From: Escherichia coli O157:H7
GTDB taxonomy: Bacteria; Pseudomonadota; Gammaproteobacteria; Enterobacterales; Enterobacteriaceae
Length of the DNA: 64,000 nucleotides
NCBI RefSeq assembly: GCF_013167455.1
Contig: NZ_CP038328.1
Strand: one strand, 5' to 3'
How positions within the stretch are numbered: the stretch's first letter is position 1; each line of letters starts with the position of its first letter. This document shows, in pieces, positions 36,001 to 39,000 of the stretch. Made by a program: the position numbers.

Positions 36001-39000
36001 GGGATTATTTTTACATTGCATATTATTACCAGAAGCGACTGGAATACTAAGCACATCATAAAAATTATCATCACATGGTATATCTGAAACACACGAAAGC
36101 ATACCTAAAGTTATGCTGTATAAACAGGTGGCTAATCCCAAGGGGATCGATTCCAGAAATCGGGTTCAACGGATACTGATAAAAATTCCACCTACCTTCC
36201 AGCCCAATCGGAGCCTGAGTGTTATACCGCCCCTGCTGCGGTTAATGTTACCGATAATAGTTATAGTACAGCCCTGATTCATCATCATACTACTGCTGCG
36301 GCAGTCTGATGAACTATTGCTTTTACGGATTCTCCTTATTCTTCCTTCTATCCATTCGCTTTAGCTTTTTGAGCTCTTGAAGTTTGCTCTTTGCATCAAT
36401 ATTACCGTTATTTACAGCGAATTCCATCCAATAAATAGCTCTATTCAAATTATAATATTCTGATAATGTTGGATTTGTATCTGATAAAAAGACCCCATAA
36501 TTAAACTGCGCTGTAACATTCCCCTGAGATGCTGATTTTTCTAAGTATCGCAATTGTTTGTAAATGTTATTTTTAGTAAAGCAGTAATATTGATATAGTC
36601 GAAATGATGCCTCTGAATCACCATGTTGTGATTTATACTTCAGTTTCATCAACTTTTCTTCACTTAAATCATAGGTCATTGCTGTAGACCCCATCATACT
36701 TTCGTTTTGTTTTATTTTCACATCAGCACCATGCAATTGACAAATAAAAGAGAAATAAAAAAATAGTAACAAGCATGCTTTCATACATCTACAACCTATC
36801 TTATATCACTGGGTTTTTCTGGCGTACCTTGCATATTAGAAATGGGGTGCCCAGATGGCCCATATGTTATCCAATTACCAAGGTCTTTTGTTGTTATAGC
36901 CATTAGATCCTTATTTGAATTAAGGTTCGTTGGTGCTGTTAGCACTGTATCCATTTTTAACTTACCATTAGTTCCTCGCCCCCACCACGTCCATAGCGTG
37001 TCAGGTCCTATTACATTTGTATGTAACTCTTTAGCTAATTGGCTAGCAAATGAATTTTGTCCTTTACCTGTATTACAAGAAAATAACCAAACTGTCATCC
37101 CATCTTTATAATTCCCATCAAATTTAATTAGATATGCTAGATCTTTAGCTGTCATGATACTGCGCGTTGCGGATTCAATAGATGTGGGGGTACCATGCCC
37201 CCCGATTGTGAAAACGCCTGGGATATTAATCTCATCAGCTACAGAATGGATAAGATCACTTTCGGGGTATAAATTTATATCAACCAAACCTTGCGGATCT
37301 ACATTTATGACCGGATTCAACGGATACTGATAAAAATTCCATCCCCCCTTCAGTCCAATCGGATCCTGAGTGATATATCGCCCGTGCAGCGGGTCATAAT
37401 AGCGGTGGCGGTTGTAATACAGGCCGGACTCCTCATCATACTGCTGCCCCGGCAGGCGGATAAGCTGCTGCAGCTGATGCGGGTTCTCTTCATTCAGCAG
37501 GTTGCCCCATTCATCGTATTCTGCGCACCATTCTGTTGCCCCTTCCGCACTGATAAGCGCCAGCGGCAGGCCGCGATGGTCGCAGTGGTACAGGTGGATT
37601 TTTCGCGCCGGCGTGTATACCGGGTCCATCTGGCTTTGCATCTGCGCCACAGTCAGGCCGCACGATGCCAGCCAGCGGCGGCTTTCCTCACTCACCCGGT
37701 CAGCCAGGATTTCACTTTCCAGCCGGTCGAGCATCTGCACCAGCACCGGCGGGAACACCACACTGCCACCGTCTTCGCCGCCGGACTGCTGAAGCGCATC
37801 CGCCAGGCTGCGGCGCTGCGTTTTCGCCAGCTCACCGGTGGCGGTTTCAACCCTGATGAGTGGCGTGAAGCTCCCCGGCTGATAAATCGTCTGGATGCGG
37901 GTTCTGTCGTTCTGTATTGTGGTCAGCCGGTCGCCGTCCCAGCCGTACCAGGTCACTTGCGGTTTCCGTGACAGCGACATCCAGCCCGTCAGGTCCCGTT
38001 CACGTCGCCACACCCGTTTTGCCACCCTGCGGCCCAGCGGGTCGTAAAGATAGCGGCTTTCGACCAGCGGCTCTTCATATTGTGTCCGCGTGTAGTGCAC
38101 CAGCCGGTGCTGACTGTCGTAATGGTACCGGTGAGTCCGCTCATCATCCGTGCGGATAACCCCTTCCGGGATGAGGTCGGTTTTCTCTGTCAGCCTGCCG
38201 TGACGGTCATACCAGTAAAGATAGTGCGCGTCACGGGCGATACGGTTATCCGGCCACATGCTGAGGGTGCTGTCCGGGTGCAGCTCCGGGTCGGGCAGGC
38301 GGTTACCTGCCGGGTCCGTGGCATACGGGATGCGGATATCCAGATTCGCTGCGGTGGTGTGAACGCCGGTCAGCCTGCCGGAGTCGCTGTAGCTGTAACT
38401 CCGGGTCTGGCGCGGGCTGCTGATGCGGATGAGTTCGCCGTTGTCGTTCCAGGTGTAATCGCGGTCATACTGCAGGCTGTTCAGGTGCTGGCTCTGTAAC
38501 TGCCCGGCAGGGGTATAAGCGGTGGTGAGTTCATAACGGCCGAATCTGCGCAGCGTTTTCCGGTGCAGGCGGTCGCGGGTGAAATCCACCAGCGGTGTGT
38601 CGCCGAGCTTCATGCCTGCCAGCCAGCCGCTGCCATAGGTCAGCCATTCCACGGCGGGCAGGCTGTCCGGTATACAGCGGTTCGCCAGCCCCTGCGCGTT
38701 GTAAGCGTGTCTGGTCTCATGCTGCCAGAGCAGTGCTTCCGTCTGCGGGTGATGCACCGTCTGACGCTCACCGGTCAGCCGGCCTTTCTCATCATACCCG
38801 TAATGCACCGTCACCCGGTGCCCTTCGCTGATATGGCTGATGTCTGTCAGCCAGCCGCGTTCGTCATACTGCCAGCGCTCTGCGGTTTCACCCTTCACGG
38901 TGCGGTGCGTGAGGCGGTCTGCTTCGTCATAGTGCCAGTGGGTGACCAGCCCCTCATCCTCGCTGCGGATAAGTTTGCCGGTCAGGTCGTGGTGATAACG

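What the first reader, a model, noticed from the sequence alone, without database searches (positions are those of the whole stretch)
36323..36784. Signal-peptide, Sel1-like repeat protein immediately downstream of the Rhs toxin (candidate periplasmic immunity)
The ORF starts 12 nt after the rhs stop, the canonical immunity position, but has a hydrophobic N-terminal leader (MKACLLLFFYFSFICQLHGA) and tandem Sel1/TPR-like repeats. An exported immunity protein would imply the toxin acts in the periplasm or on the envelope, narrowing its possible targets.
Basis: inference. Interest (0 to 1): 0.6.

Follow-up and report, generated by a model that had tools for sequence, protein, structure and literature searches.

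The report
Exported Sel1-repeat immunity protein YibG
The small gene right after the E. coli O157:H7 rhsA toxin gene is yibG, a Sel1-repeat protein with an export signal that is very probably the periplasmic antidote to a caspase-like cysteine-protease toxin tip; this fits a known pattern and was partly proposed in print.

Summary
A 153-codon ORF lies at 36323-36784 on the minus strand. Its ATG is the 12th base after the rhs stop codon, and it encodes the quoted leader followed by two Sel1-like repeats.

It is yibG of E. coli O157:H7. A 2020 in-silico paper already proposed it as the RhsA immunity protein "RhsAI", but used a 132-aa form without the leader.

What this work adds:
- The Rhs tip belongs to a large family with no Pfam model. 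It has a caspase-like (clan CD) fold and only two invariant residues, His1277 and Cys1317.
- In eight distant Rhs loci carrying this tip, seven have a small YibG-like Sel1 protein directly downstream, and seven downstream proteins carry an export signal. One Sel1 protein has none. One protein is exported but is not Sel1.
- E. coli K-12 keeps yibG intact behind a copy of the tip inactivated by a nonsense mutation.

Best reading: a Sec-exported immunity protein that blocks a cysteine-peptidase toxin acting in the periplasm. It works like the P. aeruginosa Sel1 immunity proteins PA5086-5088.

Binding, export, protease activity and the target are all untested. Novelty is modest: a new member of a known kind.

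The parts
36323..36784 (-). yibG ORF (153 aa plus stop), the candidate exported Sel1-repeat immunity protein
   Evidence: RefSeq WP_000642480.1, 'sel1 repeat family protein'
36725..36784 (-). Codons 1-20, predicted Sec signal peptide. n-region MK; h-region ACLLLFFYFSFICQL; c-region HGA. The rule-based cleavage site is LHG|A (after Gly19); cleavage after Ala20 is an alternative by eye. There is no lipobox.
   Evidence: Hydropathy. Rule-based test with a control set. The layout is conserved while the sequence diverges in homologues. AlphaFold gives a low-confidence helix at 4-14 and disorder at 15-33.
36332..36664 (-). Codons 41-151, the helical Sel1-like repeat domain. Helices are at 42-53, 57-71, 74-86, 90-100, 105-110, 113-125 and 129-151.
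36785..36795 (-). 11-nt spacer between the rhs stop and the yibG start; identical in E. coli K-12
36799..37284 (-). Rhs C-terminal tip, residues 1248-1409 (162 aa). This is the toxin cargo, a clan-CD (caspase/CPD-like) cysteine-peptidase-like domain.
37195..37197 (-). Codon of His1277 (His30 of the tip), the predicted catalytic histidine in the motif GGHG
   Evidence: Invariant in the 70-sequence alignment A2; codon read
37075..37077 (-). Codon of Cys1317 (Cys70 of the tip), the predicted catalytic cysteine in the motif WLFSC
   Evidence: Invariant in A2; codon read
37285..37299 (-). DPQGL motif (residues 1243-1247), marking the end of the conserved Rhs core and the start of the variable tip
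   Evidence: the NCBIfam RHS_core and Rhs_assc_core models end here
36796..41025 (-). rhsA of O157:H7 (1409 aa). GC is about 60% in the core and falls to 31-40% in the tip and yibG.

Best explanation
yibG encodes the cognate immunity protein of the O157:H7 RhsA toxin tip.

Proposed mechanism. YibG is made with a Sec-type signal peptide and exported to the periplasm. The leader is cleaved near Gly19-Asp21. The mature protein of about 15 kDa, a short Sel1-repeat solenoid, stays in the periplasm. There it binds tips delivered by neighbouring cells through the type VI secretion system. The tip is a 162-residue clan-CD (caspase/CPD-like) cysteine peptidase with a His1277/Cys1317 dyad. YibG blocks it and so protects a periplasmic or envelope substrate.

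Shown here: the ORF and its position, the Sel1 fold, the signal-like N-terminus, the toxin fold with its invariant His and Cys, and the conserved toxin-Sel1 gene pairing.

Inferred: export itself, binding and neutralisation, peptidase activity, periplasmic site of action, and delivery by T6SS. Delivery rests on the PAAR domain reported for this Rhs in PMC7216683 and on VgrG/PAAR genes next to distant homologues.
For: Gene order and module behaviour.
- The start lies 11 nt after the rhs stop, on the same strand.
- The tip+yibG module is 98% identical in K-12, with the same spacer. There it is an orphan: the tip carries a Gln82-to-stop mutation while yibG is intact.
- In Enterobacter, a tip 79% identical is followed after the same spacing by a YibG homologue at 57% identity, in a different chromosomal neighbourhood.

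Distant Rhs loci with the same toxin family.
- L012, L013, L014, L016, L017 and L022 have a small Sel1 protein with a signal peptide or lipobox directly downstream.
- L015 has a Sel1 protein without a signal.
- L011 has an exported protein that is not Sel1.

- The distant Sel1 proteins align end to end with YibG at 20-29% identity in multiple alignment A5; pairwise BLASTP gives 29-30% identity (E = 2e-16 and 4e-17).

Precedent. YibG matches the periplasmic T6SS immunity proteins PA5087, PA5088 and PA5086 by sequence and by fold.

Signal-like N-terminus.
Against: - There is no experimental evidence for export, binding, protection or protease activity. No functional study of yibG or yibJ was found.
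- SignalP was not available. My rule-based test is crude and passed 5 of 40 control ORFs.
- His at position -3 is unusual if cleavage is after Ala20.
- One Sel1 homologue (L015) clearly lacks a signal peptide.
- Actinobacterial toxins with this domain are followed by proteins without a signal and without Sel1 repeats. The domain is therefore not tied to a periplasmic site everywhere.
- Pfam's Sel1 model is below threshold on YibG.
Confidence: 0.65

Rival explanations
1. YibG is the immunity protein, but the toxin's lethal target is cytoplasmic. The exported Sel1 protein would intercept the tip in the periplasm on its way in. Alternatively, the leader has little importance for protection.
For: The Sel1 homologue in L015 has no signal peptide and sits behind a VgrG-DUF2169-PAAR-Rhs toxin of the same family. 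Actinobacterial relatives are followed by proteins without a signal. The nearest characterised relatives, Tce1/Tce2 and the CPDs, act inside cells (PMC13323088).
Against: 7 of 8 distant proteobacterial loci and all close YibG homologues keep an export signal despite sequence divergence. In established T6SS pairs, exported immunity proteins go with periplasm-acting effectors (general knowledge; PA5086-88 cited in PMC7216683).
Confidence: 0.15
2. The leader is not part of the protein. The real product is the 132-aa form starting at the internal GTG (Val22), as annotated for z5018, and it is a cytoplasmic immunity protein.
For: The first EDL933 annotation, used in PMC7216683, gives 132 aa. The Shine-Dalgarno sequence before the ATG is weak.
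Against: The upstream ATG, the open frame and the hydrophobic character are kept in homologues at 50-67% identity and in distant ones. RefSeq calls the 153-aa form, and clusters with 800 and 1426 member sequences are full length. Residues 1-20 form a canonical n/h/c layout.
Confidence: 0.07
3. YibG is an exported Sel1 scaffold or host-interaction protein unrelated to Rhs, like H. pylori Hcp proteins, LpnE, c5321 or MotX. Its position after rhs would be incidental.
For: Sel1 proteins are versatile adaptors. The best structural matches include LpnE, LceB, HcpC and c5321. There are weak NCBIfam hits to MotX and MerG. Some Salmonella and metagenome copies are not next to an intact toxin.
Against: The pairing with the same toxin family recurs in unrelated genomes and neighbourhoods. 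The isolated copies sit in islands of orphan toxin and immunity cassettes or next to an IS element, as expected for orphan immunity genes.
Confidence: 0.06
4. The true immunity partner of the caspase-like tip is the Imm57 protein further downstream (yibV in K-12), as the Tox-Caspase/Imm57 association tabulated by Zhang et al. 2012 would suggest. YibG would be an accessory.
For: PMC3482391 lists Imm57 with Tox-Caspase in gammaproteobacteria. An Imm57 gene lies about 0.6-1.1 kb downstream of yibG.
Against: In the window Imm57 is a frameshifted pseudogene. It is preceded by its own orphan Rhs core fragment and a degraded tip with weak Tlde1/YkuD matches, which makes a separate cassette. No Imm57 hit is on record in the other loci that carry the toxin. 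YibG itself has no Imm57 match.
Confidence: 0.04

Closest known systems
'RhsAI' (locus z5018) as proposed in silico for EHEC EDL933 (PMC7216683, 2020)
   Same: It is the same gene. It was proposed as the immunity protein of RhsA because of its position and its TPR/Sel1 motifs, and it was compared with PA5087 and PA5088. The RhsA tip was modelled as resembling C. difficile toxin A.
   Different: That paper used the 132-aa form without the leader and did not discuss export. It suggested a phosphatase-like or GTPase-inhibiting toxin activity. It did not define the His/Cys dyad, the toxin family, or the conserved toxin-Sel1 pairing.
P. aeruginosa H3-T6SS immunity proteins PA5086, PA5087 and PA5088 (PDB 6lch, 5jkp, 5jjo), partners of the phospholipase D effector PldB/Tle5b
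   Same: They have the Sel1-repeat fold and are T6SS immunity proteins. Their periplasmic location is from my background knowledge. YibG matches them by sequence (5jkp E = 2.3e-4) and by fold.
   Different: They are about twice as long (260-274 residues). Their cognate toxin is a phospholipase D, not a His/Cys peptidase-like domain. Identity to YibG is only 21-24% over about 90 residues.
Tce1 (PA0256, DUF4347) and Tce2 of P. aeruginosa, putative cysteine-protease T6SS effectors (PMC13323088, PDB 9qpe)
   Different: They are Hcp-loaded cargo effectors, not Rhs tips. They have no adjacent immunity gene, are not toxic in E. coli, and are suspected to target eukaryotes. Identity is 12%, and the window tip has no DUF4347 Pfam match.
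Cysteine protease domains (peptidase C80) of V. cholerae MARTX RtxA and C. difficile TcdA/TcdB
   Different: The CPDs are InsP6-activated self-processing modules of host-directed toxins, about 205-250 residues long. Here the domain has 162 residues, is the only cargo of an antibacterial-type Rhs protein, and has an immunity gene.
'Tox-Caspase' toxin domains of polymorphic toxin systems (Zhang et al. 2012, PMC3482391)
   Same: That class covers caspase-like H/C domains at the C-terminal end of RHS toxins in gammaproteobacteria, and repeated internal copies in giant actinobacterial toxins. This is the same distribution seen here.
   Different: That work lists Imm36 and Imm57 as partners. It does not list a Sel1-repeat immunity family or an exported one.

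Membership tests
Sel1-like repeat (SLR) proteins | Repeats of about 36-44 residues that form antiparallel helix pairs stacked into a solenoid | tested here: met
   The AlphaFold model has paired helices at 57-71/74-86 and 90-110/113-125, with flanking helices, at pLDDT above 90. All top Foldseek matches are SLR structures at probability 1.00.
Sel1-like repeat (SLR) proteins | Significant sequence match to SLR proteins or to the Pfam Sel1 model (PF08238) | tested here: inconclusive
   Pfam Sel1 scores only E = 1.2 and TPR_27 scores 3.3e-4. phmmer against solved SLR proteins gives 3.8e-9 to 7e-6. The sequence evidence is good, but the curated Pfam model is below threshold.
Rhs / T6SS immunity proteins | Encoded directly downstream of the toxin tip on the same strand, and inherited with it as a module | tested here: met
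   The spacer is 11 nt. The same module occurs as an orphan in K-12 and after a full Rhs in Enterobacter. Distant toxin homologues are followed by YibG-like proteins in 7 of 8 Rhs loci.
Rhs / T6SS immunity proteins | Binds the cognate toxin and protects against it | not testable with these tools
   This needs co-expression rescue, pull-down, or at least a multimer structure prediction. No published test was found.
Sec (signal peptidase I) secretory proteins | Positively charged n-region, hydrophobic h-region of about 7-15 residues, and a c-region with small residues at -1 and -3 | tested here: met
   The layout is MK / ACLLLFFYFSFICQL / HGA. The rule-based test gives the cleavage site LHG|A; cleavage after Ala20 is an alternative by eye. 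The same layout is present in all close homologues. This was only a rule-based test; SignalP was not available.
Sec (signal peptidase I) secretory proteins | Actual export and cleavage | not testable with these tools
   This requires PhoA or Bla fusions, fractionation or N-terminal sequencing.
Bacterial lipoproteins | Lipobox [LVI][ASTVI][GAS]C at the end of the signal peptide | tested here: not met
   YibG has no lipobox. The distant homologue in L016 does have one, LAGC.
Tli5-type immunity (PA5086-5088) | Cognate toxin is a phospholipase D effector (Tle5/PldA/PldB) | tested here: not met
   The cognate tip is a His/Cys clan-CD-like domain. YibG therefore works like Tli5 proteins but is not a member of that pairing.
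Imm57 (PF15596) | Match to the Imm57 profile | tested here: not met
   YibG has no Imm57 hit. Imm57 is a separate pseudogene at 35178-35699.
Clan CD cysteine peptidases (C80 CPD / DUF4347 / Tox-Caspase), for the Rhs tip | Catalytic His followed by Cys, each at the end of a hydrophobic beta-strand | tested here: met
   VFTIGGHG and TVWLFSC fall at the ends of strands 24-28 and 64-68. His30 and Cys70 are the only invariant columns among 70 sequences.
Clan CD cysteine peptidases (C80 CPD / DUF4347 / Tox-Caspase), for the Rhs tip | Caspase-haemoglobinase fold | tested here: met
Clan CD cysteine peptidases (C80 CPD / DUF4347 / Tox-Caspase), for the Rhs tip | Match to a curated family profile | tested here: inconclusive
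   The window tip matches no Pfam, NCBIfam or PDB sequence. Among 70 family members there are only weak hits, the most recurrent to clan-CD families. The giant protein P0107 has a faint DUF4347 hit.
Clan CD cysteine peptidases (C80 CPD / DUF4347 / Tox-Caspase), for the Rhs tip | Peptide-bond hydrolysis that depends on the Cys | not testable with these tools
   This needs enzymology and H1277A/C1317A mutants.

The most novel reading that the evidence does not exclude
The RhsA tip and its roughly 560 relatives (cluster representatives) would define an uncharacterised class of antibacterial effectors: caspase-like (clan CD) cysteine peptidases that kill from the periplasm by cutting an envelope protein or the peptidoglycan peptide. 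They would be neutralised by a dedicated family of small exported Sel1-repeat inhibitors, of which the E. coli orphan gene yibG is the founding member.
Probability: 0.45. Interest if true: 0.6.

Novelty: new member of a known kind. Interest (0 to 1): 0.4.

Why it matters
- It gives a concrete, testable function to yibG, one of the still uncharacterised 'y-ome' genes of E. coli K-12 (PMC11551758).
- It links yibG to a widespread toxin domain that no curated family covers.
- If the toxin does act in the periplasm, it would add a caspase-like protease to the envelope-targeting T6SS activities. The known ones are amidases, glycoside hydrolases, lipases and L,D-transpeptidase-like enzymes.
- There is a practical consequence. 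K-12 carries a nearly identical, intact yibG, so toxicity or competition assays with this tip need a delta-yibG host.

Tried and rejected
- Pfam, NCBIfam and PDB sequence searches of the tip found nothing beyond the Rhs core. A profile of 70 family members also found no PDB sequence.
The scan with seven close sequences returned only 3 loci. I therefore looked up contexts one protein at a time and used all 12 look-ups.
- The promoter and terminator scan around yibG was at chance level: 4 sites found against 5.6 expected.
- Literature searches for yibG, yibJ, and combinations of Rhs, cysteine protease, Sel1 and periplasm found no functional study.
- I considered a lipoprotein (no lipobox), a T6SS chaperone or adaptor (hard to reconcile with a signal peptide and a downstream position), and Imm57 as the partner. 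Imm57 belongs to a separate orphan cassette with a degraded Tlde1-like tip.
- Both structure-prediction jobs went on the two monomers, so no toxin-immunity complex was predicted.
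Full report
**Identity of the locus**

The window matches E. coli O157:H7 genomes at 100% over 36250-37400. In EDL933 the gene order is mtlA, yibI, yibH, a frameshifted Imm57 pseudogene, a partial Rhs core pseudogene, yibG ('sel1 repeat family protein', WP_000642480.1), a 1409-aa 'RHS element core protein', yibF and selA. This is the rhsA locus.

**The observation**

- The ORF is at 36323-36784 on the minus strand and encodes 153 aa.
- The rhs ORF (36796-41025, minus strand) ends in TAG. An 11-nt spacer follows, so the yibG ATG is the 12th base after the stop.
- GC falls from about 60% in the Rhs core to 31-40% across the tip and yibG. This is usual for exchangeable Rhs tip/immunity cassettes.

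**Sel1 repeats**

Pfam's Sel1 model is weak on YibG (E = 1.2; TPR_27 scores 3.3e-4). Other evidence is stronger:
- phmmer against PDB sequences finds Sel1-repeat proteins at 3.8e-9 to 7e-6. It also finds 5jkp at 2.3e-4 and 6lch at 4.6e-4.
- The AlphaFold model has a low-confidence N-terminal helix (4-14), a disordered stretch (15-33) and seven helices between 42 and 151 at pLDDT above 90.
- Every top Foldseek match is a Sel1 protein. These include the P. aeruginosa T6SS immunity proteins PA5087 (5jkp), PA5088 (5jjo) and PA5086 (6lch).
- I count two full repeats, plus an N-terminal half repeat and a cap helix.

**Export signal**

- Residues 1-20 have the layout n = MK, h = ACLLLFFYFSFICQL, c = HGA.
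- The rule-based test gives one cleavage site, after Gly19 (LHG|A). Cleavage after Ala20 is an alternative I read by eye. There is no lipobox.
- Homologues at 50-67% identity from Salmonella, Enterobacter and metagenomes have a different N-terminal sequence. They keep the positive residue, the hydrophobic run of about 15 residues and the Gly/Ala site.
- My rule-based test is crude. Five of 40 long control ORFs in the window passed; three look genuinely exported and one is a membrane protein. SignalP was not available.

**The cognate toxin**

- The tip is Rhs residues 1248-1409, which follow the DPQGL motif. It has no Pfam, NCBIfam or PDB sequence match.
- A full HMMER scan of 1.84 billion cluster representatives found 562 relatives at E<=1e-3.
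- Most relatives are C-terminal tips that follow DPxGL motifs. Others are repeated internal domains of giant proteins of 3000-6800 residues.
- In an alignment of 70 tips, only two columns are invariant: His30 and Cys70, which are His1277 and Cys1317 of the Rhs protein.
- The AlphaFold model is confident (pLDDT 91.9, pTM 0.88). The His and the Cys each sit at the end of a beta-strand.
- Foldseek agrees only weakly. Its best match is the RTX CPD at E = 8e-3.
- Scanned one by one against Pfam, the 70 family members give only weak hits. The recurrent ones are to clan-CD families: Peptidase_C80, DUF4347, C13, CHAT and C25.
- This corresponds to the 'Tox-Caspase' class predicted by Zhang et al. 2012 (PMC3482391). 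[quoted passage not shown]

**Is YibG the partner of this toxin?**

Close relatives:
- In K-12 the same cassette is an orphan downstream of rhsA-yibA. The tip (yibJ) is 98% identical, with the same 11-nt spacer. It carries a CAA-to-TAA change at Gln82 of the tip, while yibG is intact.
- In Enterobacter a full-length Rhs carries a tip 79% identical, followed at the same spacing by a YibG homologue at 57% identity. The flanking genes are different.

Eight distant Rhs loci with toxins at about 30-45% identity:

| Locus | Context | Protein directly downstream |
|---|---|---|
| L012 | Rhodanobacter | Sel1 protein with signal peptide |
| L013 | metagenome | Sel1 protein with signal peptide (ORF not called) |
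| L014 | VgrG-PAAR-Rhs | Sel1 protein with signal peptide |
| L016 | metagenome | Sel1 protein with lipobox LAGC |
| L017 | metagenome | Sel1 protein with N-terminal signal or anchor |
| L022 | metagenome | Sel1 protein with signal peptide, if started at the upstream ATG |
| L015 | VgrG-DUF2169-PAAR-Rhs | Sel1 protein without a signal |
| L011 | Rhodanobacter MAG | exported protein that is not Sel1 |

- The distant Sel1 proteins share YibG's size and architecture and align over their whole length. BLASTP gives 29-30% identity with E = 2e-16 and 4e-17.
- In Salmonella and in one metagenome, YibG homologues lie in islands of orphan toxin and immunity cassettes or beside an IS element. This is expected for orphan immunity genes.
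- In actinobacterial WXG100 (type VII) giant toxins, the domain is followed by proteins without a signal and without Sel1 repeats.

**Interpretation**

The recurring pairing, the module behaviour and the precedent of the PA5086-5088 Sel1 immunity proteins make YibG the likely immunity protein. The conserved export signal makes a periplasmic site of neutralisation likely, and therefore probably a periplasmic site of toxin action. The L015 exception and the Gram-positive relatives show that the domain is not restricted to that compartment. Interception of a cytoplasm-bound toxin in the periplasm cannot be excluded.

**What was already known**

- RefSeq names the gene.
- PMC7216683 (2020) proposed it in silico as 'RhsAI', the immunity protein of RhsA. 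That paper noted TPR/Sel1 motifs and the similarity to PA5087/PA5088, and modelled the tip as TcdA-like. It used the 132-aa form without the leader and did not address export, the catalytic dyad, or conservation of the pairing.
- yibG is still listed among uncharacterised K-12 genes (PMC11551758).
- I found no experimental work.
- A genomic SELEX study lists an RpoD-holoenzyme site in the yibJ-yibG interval of K-12 (PMC3946193). My consensus scan found nothing above chance.

**Verdict**

It is a new, partly anticipated member of a known kind: a T6SS/Rhs effector-immunity pair with an exported Sel1 immunity protein. The more interesting part is the uncharacterised caspase-like toxin family it points to.

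Noticed in passing
window 35178-36289 (minus strand): A second, decayed cassette lies downstream of yibG. It has an Rhs core fragment with internal stops (36071-36289), a degraded tip with weak Tlde1 (E = 0.008) and YkuD (E = 0.049) matches, and a frameshifted Imm57 gene (35178-35699) whose product begins with a signal-like sequence. Imm57 therefore seems paired with an L,D-transpeptidase-like tip here, not with the caspase-like tip. The Imm57/Tox-Caspase link tabulated in PMC3482391 may stem from this neighbourhood.
   Followed up: partly
L021 (E. coli K-12 NC_000913.3 3767221-3768638): K-12 yibJ is the same tip as in O157 (98% identity). It is an orphan and is inactivated by a single CAA-to-TAA change at Gln82 of the tip. 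yibG remains intact, and its product differs from the O157 protein at two residues (Y80F, K83R). Some other E. coli entries (P0100, P0102) instead have a frameshift at the catalytic His codon.
   Followed up: partly
L020 (P0107, 4395 aa); also P0110, P0111, P0113, P0115, P0125: Giant proteins of 3000-6800 residues carry 3-5 internal copies of the same His/Cys domain. P0107 has an N-terminal WXG100_2 domain and a faint DUF4347 hit, as expected for a type VII secretion substrate. This matches the 'arrays of caspase-like repeats' noted by Zhang et al. 2012, which are possibly self-processing modules.
   Followed up: partly
L015 7605-7955 (CP063166.1): The only Sel1 partner without a signal peptide. 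Its ATG has a good ribosome-binding site 14 nt after the rhs stop, and the product starts MNVDPITG. It sits behind a VgrG-DUF2169-PAAR-Rhs toxin of the same family.
   Followed up: partly
L011 3322-3720: A Rhodanobacter MAG has the same toxin family followed by an exported 132-aa protein that is not a Sel1 protein. This could be an alternative immunity family for the same toxin.
   Followed up: no
L005-L008 (Salmonella enterica): The order Ntox34 fragment, HEAT-repeat protein, about 200-nt gap, YibG homologue mirrors the K-12 order rhsA tip, yibA (HEAT), yibJ, yibG. In Salmonella the caspase-like tip appears to have been deleted.
   Followed up: no
L013 about 9880-10330; L022 about 6497-6910; z5018 of the first EDL933 annotation: Gene callers repeatedly miss or truncate these small immunity genes. 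The ORF is not called in L013. An internal Met was chosen in L022. The z5018 annotation gives a 132-aa form. In the latter two cases the signal peptide is removed from the annotation.
   Followed up: yes
L018, L019, L020 (downstream genes): The proteins after the actinobacterial toxins share a motif (TDGxWxW...YYL...H[IV]R). They look like one cytoplasmic immunity family. It was not identified.
   Followed up: no
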